DNA from: Patescibacteria group bacterium
GTDB taxonomy: Bacteria > Patescibacteriota > Microgenomatia > UBA1400 > PJMF01
DNA: 64,000 nucleotides
Direction of reading: 5' to 3'
NCBI GenBank assembly: GCA_049322655.1
Contig: JBMORP010000002.1
Location: 172,915-236,914, forward strand
In this document: positions 9,420 through 57,278 of the stretch, in pieces
How the letters are laid out: each line of letters opens with the position of its first letter
How positions within the stretch are numbered: position 1 is the stretch's first letter
Made by a program: the position numbers and the translations under genes
The notes under the pieces: model-generated
The model's input: the letters and a program-made list of their open reading frames with translations, nothing else
The model's database searches: none
What the model was told of the DNA's origin: nothing

Positions 9420-9800
9420 GGTGTTCCCTTCTTTTTTGCAGACAAAACCTGCAAAAAACATTTGTTAAAAATGCTAGAACAAAGTAACTCCACCAAAAGC
9501 AGTGAATTCACTTAATACCTAGCTATAAAGGGAAAAATGAAGGGGTGTGAAGTTGTCTTTGGCCCAAAATTTACAGATTGGTTTTAAACTTCTTCTTGAG
9601 GTATACCCATACCTGAGGGTTTCCGCAGATGCTCTCTTTTGTGATTAGTAAAAGAAGCCCGATTGTTACCTTTTAAGGCAACCCCTCTTCCTCGTTTTCC
9701 GGGTTTCTATACAAAACCTGGACCACACGCTCTTTTTTGCAAGCAACATTTGCTCACCTTTGAAAGAAGCATAACAACCTCCAAGCAAAATGTCAAAAAC
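9420..9800 (-). promoter_or_regulatory. unusually long glmS 5' leader with GC-enriched structured core; possible glmS-ribozyme-like element
   Basis: The leader is about 380 nt in a compact genome. The segment cccggaaaACGAGGAaGAGGGG...CCCUC resembles the ACGAGGA / GGAGG...CCUCC core of the glmS ribozyme. A 10-bp hairpin lies just 5' of the RBS (9431..9457). Confidence 0.3.
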
Positions 9801-53829: not shown

Positions 53830-55254
53830 TTGCCTCAAAACCAAAAAACATCTAGGCTAATATATATGCCCATGCTGAATAGTTCTCTCAGAAAAACCAA
53901 GAAATTAGATAGAAAATATTTAGCCAAAACTAAATTTCCTTTCATTACTGTTTCTGGAACTTATCGTGAAGACCTTAAAGGCCTTCACCAACTTAAAGAA
54001 AATGATCTTACTAGAGATATTGTCCTCTCCAGAGCCCATTACTCAATGACCATTGGTGTAGCAGTAGAGGCCTGGAAGAACAAACTAGACCCTCATCAGG
54101 CTTGGATTGTTGATCCTACAAATTATGTGACCAACCAAAACTGGAAAACTATTATTATTACTGAAACAATCGGTAAAATCTTGGCTCGCTTTCCTTTGCT
54201 AAAAAAACTTAAAGACTTTGTCGATAAATTCGGTCGCCAAAAACTACCTATTTTGGAAAGCATTAGACAACCATTAATCACTTTGACTAAAGATATTAAT
54301 AAGCCGATTCTGTCTTTCCACATTGCTGCTGGAAATATTCTTTTAGATAAAGGAAAAACTGTTTTTCAAATGATTACCGACCCTCACGTCAGAGAAGACT
54401 ACCTGGCTAATTGTGATAAAGAACATGCTTTCTATGGAGTTTTTGACGAAAAAACTAAACAAGAATTCCTGGAAAAAGCCGAAAAACTAGGTAAAACAGC
54501 CAATCCTAAAAGAGTGATTGTCACTGGTCCTCCAATTGATCCCAGAGTAATTGAGTCCAGAAACCACAAATCTCCCTGGAATAACAAAAAGCCACTTAGA
54601 ATTTGTCTAACTACTGGTGGTTTAGGTACTAATAAGCCAGAAATCAAACAAATCTTGACACAACTTTTACCAGAATTGAAAAAAGATCAACCTAGATTTG
54701 AATTGGTAGTTTATGCAGGCACTCAAGCAGATATCAAAAACATGGTTATTGATCTAGCCAGGAGAGAAGAAGTTAATTATGCAGAAATCAATCCTGTCGA
54801 TCCGGCTCAGTTTGAGATAGGTAAGAAAGTCGCTCTAAAACCAGAATTATATAAACATTTTACTCAACCACTGAGAATCCTTTATCATCCGCAAATAATT
54901 GATGCTAACGAACTACTCATTGCGTACGGTTTCCCTTGGGCAGATCTATTTATTAGTAAACCTTCTGGAGATATGGCTTATGATGCTGTGGCTAGTGGAG
55001 CTGCGTTGCTAACTTTGGCTGAGTGGGGTGAATGGGAACACAATATTAAAGTTAAGTTTCAAGGTCATGAAGTAGCACAAGAAGCAAATGTTGAACAGAT
55101 TGTTAAACAACTGGAAAAAATTACTCACGCCACTCCAACAAAATCAGCCTGGATTCAACACGCTCAACATTTGGCTAGAACGATTGAAAAACATGACCAA
55201 TACTTTATGGTTGGTGCCAAAAATATCTTAAAAACAGCCGCAAAACTAAAATAA
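53830..55254 (+). CDS. GT28-like glycosyltransferase (MGDG synthase/UgtP-like), start uncertain (TTG 53830 or ATG 53866)
   Basis: C-terminal LFISKPSGDMAYDAVASGAALLTL matches the UgtP/MGD ITKPGG...EALA motif. Confidence 0.65.
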   Translation: MPQNQKTSRLIYMPMLNSSLRKTKKLDRKYLAKTKFPFITVSGTYREDLKGLHQLKENDLTRDIVLSRAHYSMTIGVAVEAWKNKLDPHQAWIVDPTNYVTNQNWKTIIITETIGKILARFPLLKKLKDFVDKFGRQKLPILESIRQPLITLTKDINKPILSFHIAAGNILLDKGKTVFQMITDPHVREDYLANCDKEHAFYGVFDEKTKQEFLEKAEKLGKTANPKRVIVTGPPIDPRVIESRNHKSPWNNKKPLRICLTTGGLGTNKPEIKQILTQLLPELKKDQPRFELVVYAGTQADIKNMVIDLARREEVNYAEINPVDPAQFEIGKKVALKPELYKHFTQPLRILYHPQIIDANELLIAYGFPWADLFISKPSGDMAYDAVASGAALLTLAEWGEWEHNIKVKFQGHEVAQEANVEQIVKQLEKITHATPTKSAWIQHAQHLARTIEKHDQYFMVGAKNILKTAAKLK

Positions 55255-55632: not shown

Positions 55633-55659
55633 GGTAGAGTCGGCTCTAATGAGAGCCAA

Positions 55660-55684
55660 TCATGTGCCAAGGGAAGGATTCACT
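55660..55684 (-). repeat. direct repeat of the last about 20 nt of tRNA-Tyr (atgtgccaagggaaggattc); att-like scar
   Basis: The 20-mer is identical at 55663..55682 and 55796..55815. Confidence 0.5.
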
Positions 55685-55765
55685 GACTCAGGCTCGTTCT
55701 ATACTTTAAAAATATAGGGCTCGCTTGAGGCAGTATAAACTTCTCATCCCACCTTTATATTATTT

Positions 55766-55793
55766 TAAAAATCACCAATGGTGATTTTTAAAA
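55766..55793 (-). terminator. hairpin plus T-run immediately 3' of tRNA-Tyr
   Basis: aaaaatcacc-aat-ggtgattttt 10-bp stem followed by TTTTTAATAAT on the minus strand. Confidence 0.4.
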
Positions 55794-55798
55794 CAATG

Positions 55799-55881
55799 TG
55801 CCAAGGGAAGGATTCGAACCTACGAAGGCGAAAGCCAGCAGTTTTACAGACTGCCCTGTTTGACCACTTCAGTACCTTGGC
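55799..55881 (-). tRNA. tRNA-Tyr (anticodon GUA), class II with long variable arm
   Basis: GCCAAGG acceptor stem, anticodon loop CTGTAAA and GGCTTTCGCC variable arm. One mismatch in the T-stem. Confidence 0.75.
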
Positions 55882-55968: not shown

Positions 55969-56082
55969 ATTTCAATCTCTATATTGTACCTCAAAAAAAG
56001 ACCCACAGAGATCTGTATATTATATGAATAAATAGGAAACGAACAAGTAATAACTTAAAACTCTTTATAAATAAGTTTTTTG

Positions 56083-56241
56083 CCTTAACAACCCAGCGCG
56101 AGGGGGAGAACAGTTTTCCCCGGTAAAACCAAGGTGGGCAGAGTGACTGAAACTCCACGAAGCCCCAATACGCCTCATAAGCCCTTAAACAAGCTGTTGA
56201 GAAATTTTTTGGTTCTCTCCCCTCCCGCAGGATTGTTAAGG
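56083..56241. ncRNA. GC-rich structured element (candidate small ncRNA or MITE-like inverted-repeat element); strand unknown
   Basis: An imperfect helix of about 25 bp (ccttaacaa..gagggggagaac pairing with gttctctcccctc..ttgttaagg) encloses roughly 100 nt of GC-rich sequence with internal hairpins, in an otherwise AT-rich spacer. Confidence 0.35.
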
Positions 56242-56360
56242 TTCTACTAATAAAGATACTACAAAATAGTGACAACAACAAGTTCAATTCCAGAGGTAGA
56301 AACAAAAAAACCCACCCCAACCGATTATATCTTCGGGGTGGCTAAATTGCTGTATTTATT

Positions 56361-57278
56361 CTAACTTTTATCTGTTAGTTCTTGCAACCATCCTACTACC
56401 TTGGGACCATAGTCTTCATAATCAAGCACATATTTTAAATGTGCTTTAAAGTAATTTTCTGGGTCACCAGTAGTCATCCATTTGGTTGAGTTTTTAGCTA
56501 CTAAAACCTTCCCACCATCCTTGTTCAAATGACCAATTGCGTCTGCAGTCCAAAGTTCTCCATCTTTACCAGTATTACCTGCATCTAAATATTTAAAGAT
56601 TTTAGGAGTGAGTAAATACCGTCCATATGAGGCTAAAGTTGTTGGTGCTTCTTCTGCTTTTGGCTTTTCAACAATTCCAACCAATATATTTTCTTGATTT
56701 TCTCGATACTCATTATCTTTCAATGAAACAGCCGCATACTTACTGATTTGATCTCTTGGTAAATCCTCAACCATAATAACTGCATCAGCACTAGAGTATT
56801 TCTCATAAGTATCAACTAGCGTTCTAGCTGATCCTGGTTTACCAAACACCACATCATCACTGTACAAAGCAAGAAAAGCCTCTTCACCTTCAACAAAAGC
56901 TCTGGCTGAAGCAATTGGTGAACCGTTACCGTAAGGTAAGCTTGGGTCTTGAGTAATTACGATGATTTTAGGAAAATCTAAAACTTCCTGGACAGAAGCA
57001 TAACGATCTTCTTTTCCCTGAGCTGAAAGTTGTTTTCTGATACGATTAACATTGTTGTTGAAGTAATCTTCATAAATTGGCTTACCCTCTGGAGTAGCCA
57101 CAATAATGATTTCTTCAATCCCAGCCTCTACACATTCCTCAATTACAATCTGCATGATGGGTCTATTACCCAAAGGAAGCATCGCTTTAGGTACTGTTTT
57201 GGTAATGGGCAAATACCTGCTAGCAAAACCAGCGTCGGTAATGATTGCTTTACGCACTTTTTTGTTTGCTGAAAGCAT
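56361..57278 (-). CDS. galU: UTP--glucose-1-phosphate uridylyltransferase
   Basis: The N-terminal A(I)ITDAGFASRYLPITK matches the G(A)GxGTR(F)LP nucleotidyltransferase motif. Confidence 0.85.
   Translation of the reverse strand: MLSANKKVRKAIITDAGFASRYLPITKTVPKAMLPLGNRPIMQIVIEECVEAGIEEIIIVATPEGKPIYEDYFNNNVNRIRKQLSAQGKEDRYASVQEVLDFPKIIVITQDPSLPYGNGSPIASARAFVEGEEAFLALYSDDVVFGKPGSARTLVDTYEKYSSADAVIMVEDLPRDQISKYAAVSLKDNEYRENQENILVGIVEKPKAEEAPTTLASYGRYLLTPKIFKYLDAGNTGKDGELWTADAIGHLNKDGGKVLVAKNSTKWMTTGDPENYFKAHLKYVLDYEDYGPKVVGWLQELTDKS

What the first reader, a model, noticed from the sequence alone, without database searches (positions are those of the whole stretch)
56083..56241. GC-rich structured element with long closing helix next to the tRNA cluster
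An element of about 159 nt lies between galU and tRNA-Thr(GGU). Its ends form an imperfect helix of about 25 bp (ccttaacaa/ttgttaagg plus gagggggagaac/gttctctcccctc) enclosing roughly 100 nt of GC-rich sequence with internal hairpins. Strong GC enrichment in AT-rich non-coding DNA is typical of structured RNAs (6S RNA or another sRNA; it is too short for RNase P or tmRNA). A 25-bp terminal inverted repeat around a 100-bp core is also the signature of a MITE. The overlapping 109-aa ORF in the track is probably spurious.
Basis: seen in the sequence. Interest (0 to 1): 0.55.

Follow-up and report, generated by a model that had tools for sequence, protein, structure and literature searches.

The report
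Divergent 6S RNA gene of Patescibacteria
The GC-rich element is a real, conserved structured RNA gene, most likely this tiny-genome bacterium's version of 6S RNA (which mimics an open promoter and sequesters RNA polymerase); it is too divergent for the standard database model, so it is a useful annotation rather than a new kind of RNA.

Summary
Window 56083-56241 is a 159-nt RNA whose ends form a long closing helix. The functional strand is minus, the same as galU and the tRNA genes.

It is single-copy, so it is not a MITE. The 109-aa ORF over it is not conserved.

Homologs lie at the same place and on the same strand in 69 of 80 Patescibacteria galU loci. On 65 sequences, 95% of the cells in 41 pairs form standard pairs and 35 pairs show double changes. 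The slid control gives about 50% paired.

The consensus is a rod: a closing stem, a 5-6 bp helix P2, a 14/14-nt central bubble and an irregular apical arm. Most loci have their own -10-like box.

No Rfam family matches the window copy. Two family members do match Rfam 6S (RF00013) over its full length on the correct strand, at 22.4 and 35.3 bits (narrow-search E = 0.005 and 5e-6; threshold 46.4). The family's invariant GGG and CCCACCUGG fall on the 6S consensus bases that flank the bubble. An always-pyrimidine bubble position aligns with the E. coli pRNA start. A 3'-bubble hairpin competes with P2, as in 6S release.

Verdict: a divergent 6S RNA (ssrS), a new member of a known kind. RNA polymerase binding is untested.

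The parts
56083..56241 (-). The RNA from the first to the last base of the closing stem (159 nt); candidate 6S RNA (ssrS). The covariance-model match spans 56077-56246.
   Evidence: Model R1 scores 131.9 bits on the minus strand and 34.1 on plus. MFE is -75.4 kcal/mol, z = -6.2. Coordinates were mapped.
56219..56241 (-). Closing stem, 5' strand (CCUUAACAAUCCUGCGGGAGGGG).
   Evidence: It pairs with 56083-56105. In the family all 18 closing-stem pairs show double (compensatory) changes.
56083..56105 (-). Closing stem, 3' strand (CCCCUCGCGCUGGGUUGUUAAGG).
56212..56217 (-). Extension of the closing stem, 5' strand (GAGAAC, pairs with GUUCUC at 56106-56111). It is seen in the window and its three closest relatives (L002-L004); elsewhere this region is an internal loop.
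   Evidence: Single-sequence fold; alignment rows of the window and L002-L004.
56106..56111 (-). Extension of the closing stem, 3' strand (GUUCUC).
56199..56204 (-). Helix P2, 5' strand (UUUCUC; family consensus UUUUCCUC). It corresponds to the 6S 'downstream' helix that pRNA synthesis would unwind.
   Evidence: Nearly invariant columns 51-56. P2 cells are 95% paired, and the last pair switches C:G (35) to G:C (12). It aligns to the P2 strand of the 6S model in homolog L028.
56116..56121 (-). Helix P2, 3' strand (GGGGAA). It is also the 3' arm of the alternative 3'-bubble hairpin.
56185..56198 (-). 5' strand of the central bubble (AACAGCUUGUUUAA). The C at 56196 is the predicted template start for a product RNA (pRNA 5'-GUUGAGAAAUUU...).
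   Evidence: Column 59 is A in 65/65 sequences and column 60 is C/U in 65/65. In the L028 alignment to RF00013 this C falls on the model position that I map, from my recalled E. coli 6S sequence and from reports that I also recall (not checked here) that pRNA synthesis starts at U44, to that start site. The pRNA start is an inference.
56122..56135 (-). 3' strand of the central bubble (ACCUUGGUUUUACC). A at 56135 is the first unpaired base after the apical arm.
   Evidence: ACCU columns 134-137 are almost invariant. They coincide with the upper-case CCCACCU of the RF00013 consensus.
56118..56134 (-). Alternative hairpin CCUUGGU-UUU-ACCGGGG, formed by the 3' bubble strand with the 3' strand of P2. 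It is mutually exclusive with P2.
   Evidence: Local folds give such a hairpin in about three quarters of the 65 sequences, with varied inner pairs (GG/CC, GC/GC, CG/CG, AG/CU, GA/UC). RNAalifold picks its outer pairs on its own. One inner pair is paired in 48/63 sequences against 31 in shuffles.
56136..56184 (-). Apical arm: P3 GGGC/GCCC (56181-56184 / 56136-56139), P4 GAG/CUC (56174-56176 / 56141-56143), and a 10-bp apical hairpin at 56146-56169 with CGUG tetraloop at 56156-56159.
   Evidence: All 10 apical-hairpin pairs and all 3 P4 pairs show double changes. The GGG:CCC pairs are 62-65/65 invariant.
56256..56261 (-). -10-like hexamer TAGTAT upstream of the RNA (putative own promoter), conserved in the three closest relatives.
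   Evidence: Upstream sequences. A hexamer matching TATAAT at 5/6 or better lies within 55 nt upstream in 49/65 loci, against 27.2 +/- 3.7 in shuffles.
56304..56341 (-). Terminator-like hairpin plus U-run after galU (CCACCCC...GGGGUGG-GUUUUUUU), separating galU from the RNA gene.
   Evidence: Read from the sequence. The scan tool did not list it, probably because the loop of about 14 nt exceeds its limit.

Best explanation
The element is the gene for a divergent 6S RNA (ssrS) of a Patescibacteria (CPR) bacterium, transcribed on the minus strand, probably from its own promoter.

Shown here:
- The RNA folds into a rod. It has a closing stem of about 22 bp, a short helix P2 (UUUUCCUC/GGGGAA), a central bubble of about 14 + 14 unpaired nucleotides, and an irregular apical arm closed by invariant GGG:CCC pairs.

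Inferred by analogy with characterised 6S RNAs:
- The rod mimics an open promoter and occupies the active-site cleft of the housekeeping sigma-RNA polymerase holoenzyme.
- The 3' bubble strand (invariant A-CCU) plays the part of the -10 non-template strand.
- When NTPs are plentiful the polymerase uses the 5' bubble strand as template. It would start at the invariant pyrimidine of the AAC motif (window 56196) and copy into P2, giving a pRNA of roughly GUUGAGAAAUUU.
- This unzips P2 and frees GGGG to pair with the CCU(N)GG of the 3' bubble strand. That hairpin collapses the bubble and releases the polymerase.
For: 1. It is a real conserved RNA. There is one copy on the same strand in 69 of 80 galU loci of Patescibacteria genomes. 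On 65 sequences 95.4% of pair cells are standard pairs, against 45-52% when partners are slid. 35 of 41 pairs carry double changes. The covariation score is 0.685 against 0.12-0.17. RNAalifold gives the same helices independently.

2. The architecture is that of 6S RNA as described in PMC8876501: a rod, a central bubble, and two imperfect helical arms.

3. There is direct similarity to the 6S family. RF00013 matches homolog L028:4951-5093 over model positions 1-187 at 22.4 bits, E = 0.0054. It matches family member L103:961-1113 at 35.3 bits, E = 6.6e-4 in a 25-kb search and 5e-6 in a narrow one. Both are on the strand and at the coordinates found by my model R1.

4. The family's invariant GGG and CCCACCUGG align to the highly conserved (upper-case) GGG and CCCACCU of the 6S consensus on either side of the bubble.

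5. Position 3 of the 5' bubble strand is a pyrimidine in 65/65 sequences. In the alignment it falls on the model position that corresponds to the E. coli pRNA start. That mapping uses my recalled E. coli 6S sequence and the start site U44, also from memory.

6. A hairpin between the 3' bubble strand and the 3' strand of P2 is widespread and covaries. The same kind of rearrangement drives 6S release in E. coli (PMC8876501).

7. It behaves as an independent stable-RNA gene. There is a -10-like box upstream in 49/65 loci against 27 expected. A U-run follows the closing stem in many loci, or a tRNA starts 4-25 nt downstream. In a divergent subfamily the RNA sits in a different gene neighbourhood, away from both the tRNAs and galU.
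Against: - The window copy gives no RF00013 hit even at E <= 10 in a 186-nt search. Neither does the divergent member L144.
- The two homolog hits are below the family's gathering score of 46.4 bits.
- My family model does not detect E. coli ssrS.
- The 5' bubble/P2 motif UUUUCCUSAAYA is much more sequence-conserved than is usual for 6S RNAs, whose sequence identity is described as limited (PMC8876501).
- At about 160 nt the RNA is shorter than the roughly 200 nt given for 6S RNAs in PMC8876501.
- No expression, polymerase-binding or pRNA data exist for these uncultivated organisms.
- I could not scan whole genomes, so a second, canonical 6S gene elsewhere is not excluded.
Confidence: 0.8

Rival explanations
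1. It is a distinct, lineage-specific stable RNA that shares only the rod-with-bubble shape with 6S. It serves another partner, for example as a scaffold or sponge for an RNA-binding protein, or as a trans-acting sRNA whose CU-rich motif UUUUCCUC pairs with purine-rich ribosome-binding sites.
For: There is no Rfam hit for the window copy or for L144. The UUUUCCUSAAYA motif is unusually strongly conserved. In part of the family this motif can be presented in the loop of a small hairpin with compensatory changes: 15 of 70 sequences have p <= 0.05 against about 3.5 expected, and CAUGAU/AUCAUG changes to CAAGAU/AUCUUG. Model R1 does not find E. coli 6S.
Against: Two family members hit the 6S model over its full length with significant E-values, at exactly the family coordinates and strand. 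The shared CCCACCUGG and GGG lie at homologous positions next to the bubble, which shape alone would not produce.
Confidence: 0.13
2. It is a cis-acting element: a 3'-UTR structure of galU, or a leader that controls the tRNA-Thr/Tyr/Thr operon downstream.
For: Its position between galU and tRNA-Thr(GGU) is conserved in most loci. In five loci the tRNA begins 4-25 nt after the element, so they are probably co-transcribed.
Against: A terminator-like hairpin follows galU, and a -10-like box precedes the element in 49/65 loci. Many loci have a U-run directly after the closing stem and a further -10 box before the tRNA. The element stays with galU when the tRNAs are more than 1 kb away (L029, L044, L056) and with the tRNA when galU is 1.4 kb away (L064). 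The divergent subfamily lies in a different gene neighbourhood, not next to a tRNA or galU.
Confidence: 0.04
3. It is a MITE or another mobile element with terminal inverted repeats.
For: It has 23-nt inverted arms around a 113-nt core.
Against: There is one copy in 64 kb, and one copy per locus at the same syntenic site and strand in 69 loci from different species. The arms differ between species but stay complementary through compensatory changes and G-U pairs, which work on one strand only.
Confidence: 0.01
4. The region encodes the 109-aa protein of the ORF at 55991-56320 (-).
For: The ORF exists in the window.
Against: A stop-free frame spans the element on that strand in only 16 of 65 loci, and not in the closest relatives L002-L004. 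Substitutions follow base-pairing, and there are many indels of non-triplet length.
Confidence: 0.01

Closest known systems
6S RNA / SsrS (Rfam RF00013), e.g. E. coli ssrS and B. subtilis 6S-1
   Same: Both are rod-shaped RNAs with a closing stem, a central bubble and an imperfect apical arm. Both have conserved GGG...CCCACCU flanking the bubble on the apical side. Both have a short 'downstream' helix P2 next to the bubble, a pyrimidine at the position aligned with the E. coli pRNA start, and a 3'-bubble hairpin that uses the 3' strand of P2. Both are independent stable-RNA genes. Two family members give full-length sub-threshold hits to RF00013.
   Different: This RNA is shorter (about 160 nt against about 185-200). 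The window copy is not detected by RF00013 at all, and the best family members stay below the gathering score (35.3 against 46.4 bits). The 5' bubble/P2 motif UUUUCCUSAAYA is nearly invariant across the sampled genomes. The genomic context is galU-6S-tRNA-Thr/Tyr/Thr rather than zapA-ssrS-fau as in E. coli. In some genomes it is probably co-transcribed with tRNAs.
Ms1 RNA of Actinobacteria (6S-like, binds the RNA polymerase core)
   Same: Both are structured RNAs related in shape to 6S that standard 6S models miss (PMC9130861 abstract).
   Different: I made no sequence comparison with Ms1. This family shows direct similarity to the 6S consensus. From memory, Ms1 is about 300 nt.
Bacterial small SRP RNA (4.5S)
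   Same: Both are small, GC-rich, hairpin-like housekeeping RNAs that can sit in stable-RNA gene clusters.
   Different: There is no Rfam SRP hit. Here the apical hairpin and its tetraloop vary freely, whereas in SRP RNA the apical region is the conserved Ffh-binding site (from memory).

Membership tests
6S RNA (RF00013) | A rod-shaped RNA of about 150-200 nt with a closing stem, a largely unpaired central bubble and an imperfect apical stem | tested here: met
   The consensus structure from 44 and 65 sequences has a closing stem, P2, a 14/14-nt bubble and an apical arm. 95.4% of cells are paired and 35 of 41 pairs show double changes. The definition is taken from PMC8876501.
6S RNA (RF00013) | Score at or above the curated Rfam gathering threshold (46.4 bits) | tested here: not met
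   The window copy has no hit at the gathering score or at E <= 10. Homolog L028 scores 22.4 bits and family member L103 35.3 bits. Both are full-length with significant E-values but below threshold. L144 has no hit.
6S RNA (RF00013) | Conserved nucleotides flanking the bubble (GGG on the 5' side and CCCACCU on the 3' side of the RF00013 consensus) | tested here: met
   GGG is present in 62-65 of 65 sequences and CCCACCU in 53-65 of 65. They align to the upper-case consensus letters in both cmscan alignments.
6S RNA (RF00013) | A template start site for pRNA in the 5' bubble strand next to P2 | tested here: inconclusive
   The third bubble position is C/U in 65/65 sequences and is preceded by an invariant A. 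It aligns with the model position of E. coli U44, though alignment confidence there is only moderate. The E. coli sequence and the U44 start site are from memory. No pRNA data exist.
6S RNA (RF00013) | A pRNA-driven rearrangement in which the 3' strand of P2 re-pairs within the bubble (E. coli-type 3'-bubble hairpin) | tested here: inconclusive
   The alternative hairpin CCUNN/NNGGG is predicted in about three quarters of sequences with covarying inner pairs, and it is mutually exclusive with P2. Whether it forms on release cannot be tested here.
6S RNA (RF00013) | Binds the housekeeping sigma-RNA polymerase holoenzyme and is abundant and stable | not testable with these tools
   There are no expression or binding data for these uncultivated bacteria. 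The only related evidence is promoter-like -10 boxes and terminator- or tRNA-defined 3' ends.
MITE | Multiple dispersed copies with conserved terminal inverted repeats and target-site duplications | tested here: not met
   There is a single copy in the window. It is single and syntenic in 69 loci. The arms covary instead of being conserved.
Bacterial SRP RNA | A match to the SRP covariance models, with a conserved apical Ffh-binding loop region | tested here: not met
   There is no SRP hit at E <= 10. The apical hairpin sequence is variable.

The most novel reading that the evidence does not exclude
This could be a separate, CPR-specific branch of 6S-like RNAs with a conserved function beyond generic promoter mimicry. 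The nearly invariant template UUUUCCUSAAYA would yield the same product RNA (about GUUGAGGAAAA) across a very wide set of Patescibacteria, so the product RNA or the motif itself may act in trans. The frequent coupling to the tRNA-Thr/Tyr/Thr operon may also tie polymerase sequestration to stable-RNA synthesis in these reduced episymbionts. The more radical variant is that it is not a polymerase-binding RNA at all but a new RNP component that resembles 6S.
Probability: 0.15. Interest if true: 0.55.

Novelty: new member of a known kind. Interest (0 to 1): 0.3.

Why it matters
6S RNA is a global regulator of transcription. If this assignment holds, the sampled Patescibacteria lineages (Paceibacterota, Microgenomates and relatives), with genomes of roughly 1 Mb or less, still keep it. 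That suggests growth-phase control of RNA polymerase is retained even in these streamlined bacteria.

In practice the gene is missed by the Rfam gathering threshold: neither the window copy nor any of the 16 homologous loci scanned at that threshold reached it. The 65-sequence alignment and covariance model made here could seed a Patescibacteria-aware 6S model and improve annotation of thousands of MAGs.

It also removes a spurious 109-aa ORF. It is not a new kind of RNA.

Tried and rejected
- Rfam on the whole window at the gathering score, and on 951-nt and 186-nt stretches at E <= 10, gave nothing on the minus strand of the element. The same was true for divergent member L144.
- Rfam at the gathering score on 16 homologous loci found only tRNAs.
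- BLASTN of the element against the window found no second copy, so the MITE reading was rejected.
- The reverse test, model R1 against E. coli ssrS with filters off, gave no meaningful hit. The narrow model cannot bridge that distance.
- A fixed-register count for the 3'-bubble hairpin was only partly informative, because the G-run allows several registers. I relied on per-sequence folds instead.
- Three literature searches pairing 6S RNA or structured noncoding RNA with Patescibacteria, CPR or candidate-division terms returned no paper that the listings show to describe such an RNA. The single paper holding both 'Patescibacteria' and '6S RNA' was not opened.
- I considered and dropped several other identities. 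SRP RNA does not fit because the apical region varies. RNase P RNA does not fit because the RNA is too short and lacks the P4 motifs (from memory). ARAGORN found no tmRNA. I also saw no tRNA-like module (so not a Y RNA), no reverse transcriptase or nuclease gene nearby (so not a retron or omega RNA), and a closing stem too long, with its own promoter, for a riboswitch. The 11-nt tetraloop receptor resemblance (UAUGG/CCUA) is only partial.

Full report
**1. The observation**

The two ends are 23-nt arms, 87% complementary, separated by 113 nt. In this sequence the helix continues with GAGAAC/GUUCUC. The stated ends are the outermost base pairs of that helix.

The minus strand folds to -75.4 kcal/mol, against -50.0 +/- 4.1 for dinucleotide shuffles (z = -6.2). 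The plus strand folds less well, at -61.0 kcal/mol (z = -4.1). G+C reaches 0.45-0.52 inside the element and is 0.31-0.37 in the flanking spacers.

The neighbours are a GalU-like nucleotidyltransferase gene at 56361-57278 (-) (Pfam NTP_transferase) and tRNA-Thr(GGU), tRNA-Tyr and tRNA-Thr(UGU) at 55968-55559 (-). Beyond them lie rpmG and, on the other side, secE/nusG/rplK/rplA.

**2. Where the window comes from, and whether the element is conserved**

A search of one genome per species with the GalU-like protein returned the window's own contig (CAYSQA010000001.1, 100% identity) and 79 other loci. Most of them carry Paceibacterota, Pacebacteria, Microgenomates or Patescibacteria-group titles, and the rest have other names.

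nhmmer with the element found a homolog just downstream of galU, on the galU strand, in about 60 of the 80 loci. A profile built from the first twelve found 68. A covariance model (R1) found exactly one strong match per locus in 69 of the 80 loci. Full-length matches scored 42-148 bits on the galU strand; the mirror-image match on the other strand never exceeded 39 bits. The window scores 131.9 bits on minus and 34.1 on plus, so the gene is on the minus strand.

Inside the 64-kb window there is no second copy. That result, together with the strict synteny, excludes a MITE.

The 109-aa ORF over the element is open across the element in only 16 of 65 loci, and in none of the closest relatives. 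It is spurious.

**3. Structure**

RNAalifold on 44 and on 65 sequences gives the same picture, and so does pair counting on the model-based alignment A4. The elements are:

- a closing stem of about 18-22 bp;
- an internal loop, closed in the window's own clade by GAGAAC/GUUCUC;
- a 5-6 bp helix P2 (UUUUCCUC/GGGGAA);
- a bubble of about 14 + 14 nt;
- an apical arm made of GGGY:RCCC, a 3-bp helix and a 10-bp hairpin capped by a YNNG tetraloop.

Of 2654 pair cells, 95.4% are standard pairs, against 45-52% when the 3' partners are slid by 1-3 columns. 35 of 41 pairs carry double changes. The covariation score is 0.685 against 0.12-0.17. Every pair of the closing stem and of the apical hairpin covaries.

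P2 is almost invariant, but its last pair switches C:G (35 sequences) to G:C (12 sequences).

The unpaired strands hold the most conserved nucleotides: UUUUCCUS-AAYA on the 5' side and CCC-ACCU on the 3' side.

**4. A competing hairpin**

In about three quarters of the sequences the 3' bubble strand (CCUNN) can pair with the G-run that otherwise forms the 3' strand of P2. The inner pairs vary (GG/CC, GC/GC, CG/CG, AG/CU, GA/UC and longer variants). RNAalifold chooses the outer pairs of this hairpin without prompting. One inner pair is paired in 48 of 63 sequences against 31 in shuffles. In the window this hairpin is 56118-56134 and is mutually exclusive with P2.

A weaker hairpin that encloses the UUUUCCUSAAYA motif appears in part of the family. 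15 of 70 sequences reach p <= 0.05, and there are clear compensatory changes in a divergent subfamily.

**5. It is a gene of its own**

A terminator-like hairpin with a U-run follows galU at 56304-56341. A hexamer matching TATAAT at 5/6 or better lies within 55 nt upstream of the closing stem in 49 of 65 loci, against 27.2 +/- 3.7 in shuffles. It ends 11-42 nt before the stem. In the window it is TAGTAT at 56256-56261, and it is shared with the three closest relatives.

Downstream, many loci have a U-run directly after the closing stem. Others have a further -10 box before the tRNA. In five loci tRNA-Thr(GGU) starts only 4-25 nt after the stem, which implies co-transcription and a 3' end made by tRNA processing.

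The element stays next to galU when the tRNAs are more than 1 kb away, and next to the tRNA when galU is 1.4 kb away.

A metagenome pattern scan added 13 further members. Four of them form a divergent subfamily that is not next to a tRNA or galU. In the two long loci examined (L144 and L153) it lies between an M50-type peptidase-like gene and a gene for a Nudix-like/RNase H-like fusion protein; those gene identities are my reading of motifs in the translations, not a family search.

The association with galU and the tRNAs is therefore synteny, not a functional requirement.

**6. Identity**

No Rfam 15 family matches the window copy, even at E <= 10 in a 186-nt search. None of 16 homologous loci reaches a gathering score for anything but tRNA.

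Two family members do match the 6S model RF00013 over its whole length, on the correct strand and at the coordinates found by R1:

- L028:4951-5093 at 22.4 bits, E = 0.0054;
- L103:961-1113 at 35.3 bits, E = 6.6e-4 in a 25-kb search and 5e-6 in a narrow one (R1 hit).

The gathering score is 46.4 bits. The alignments show where the similarity lies:

- The closing stems correspond.
- The family's P2 falls on the model's helix next to the bubble.
- The invariant GGG and CCCACCUGG fall on the upper-case GGG and CCCACCU of the 6S consensus at the apical edge of the bubble.
- The always-pyrimidine third bubble position falls on the model position that, by my count from the recalled E. coli 6S sequence, is U44, where I recall E. 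coli pRNA synthesis being reported to start. Both the sequence and the start site are from memory. Alignment confidence at that point is moderate.

The architecture and the P2/3'-hairpin competition fit the description of 6S RNAs in PMC8876501: a rod with a central bubble, and in E. coli-type 6S a hairpin formed between the 3' bubble strand and the 3' strand of P2 once pRNA synthesis has opened P2.

**7. Mechanism (inferred)**

The RNA would mimic an open promoter. The apical arm stands for upstream DNA. The 3' bubble strand stands for the -10 non-template strand, and its first unpaired base, an almost invariant A at 56135, sits where -11A sits in a promoter. P2 plus the closing stem stand for downstream DNA.

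Bound polymerase would start at the template C at 56196 and copy into P2, making a pRNA of about 5'-GUUGAGAAAUUU. The freed GGGG would then form the 56118-56134 hairpin and the complex would dissociate.

The structure, the conservation and the similarity to 6S are shown here. Binding, pRNA synthesis and release are inferences.

**8. What argues against this**

- The window copy itself is invisible to RF00013, and the homolog hits are sub-threshold.
- R1 does not find E. coli ssrS.
- The 5' bubble/P2 motif is far more conserved than is usual for 6S RNAs.
- The RNA is short, at about 160 nt.
- I could not scan whole genomes for a second, canonical 6S gene.

I therefore put the 6S assignment at about 0.8. 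About 0.13 goes to a distinct RNA class that resembles 6S, and small remainders go to a cis-acting role, a MITE and a coding reading.

**9. Novelty and score**

This is a new, divergent member (or subfamily) of a known kind. It is useful for annotating Patescibacteria genomes and for improving the 6S model, but it is not a new kind of RNA. Three searches of the held literature returned no paper describing 6S RNA in these lineages; that is absence of evidence only. Interest is 0.3.

Noticed in passing
window 55633-55797 (between tRNA-Tyr and tRNA-Thr(UGU), minus strand): This spacer carries about 110 nt of extra sequence that the closest relative L002 lacks; in L003 and L004 the spacer is only 8-14 nt. 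The extra sequence holds a perfect 20-nt copy of the 3' end of tRNA-Tyr (55662-55681 = 55796-55815) and a hairpin with 19-nt arms (55759-55797). It looks like the scar of an integration or partial duplication at tRNA-Tyr.
   Followed up: partly
window 9539-9742 (-): A glmS ribozyme/riboswitch match (RF00234) at 42.2 bits, above its gathering score of 37.
   Followed up: no
L144:1391-1549 (-), L153:8512-8665 (+), L158:1559-1713 (-), L105:864-1026 (-): A divergent subfamily of the same RNA in metagenome contigs (39-43 bits with R1), not next to a tRNA or galU. In L144 and L153 it lies between a membrane-protease-like gene (HExxH motif, M50-like) and a gene for a Nudix-like/RNase H-like fusion protein; these identities were read from the translations and not tested with a family search. 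Its UUUCCUGAAUA motif sits in the loop of a 6-8 bp hairpin with compensatory changes.
   Followed up: partly
L053, L040, L052, L064, L067 (downstream of the RNA): tRNA-Thr(GGU) begins only 4-25 nt after the closing stem, with no room for a promoter. In these genomes the 6S-like RNA and the tRNAs are probably one transcript, and RNase P would create the RNA's 3' end.
   Followed up: partly
window 53830-55254 (+): A 474-aa ORF between tRNA-Trp and rpmG has only a weak, below-cutoff match to DUF6938 (23.8 bits against a cutoff of 27). It is otherwise uncharacterised.
   Followed up: no
record titles of L001-L080: Many MAGs with this Patescibacteria-type locus are titled 'uncultured Pseudomonadales bacterium', and single ones 'TM6', 'Vitreimonas sp.' or 'Limisphaerales'. 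These names do not fit the gene order or the GalU-like protein similarity, so they are probably placeholder or wrong names.
   Followed up: no
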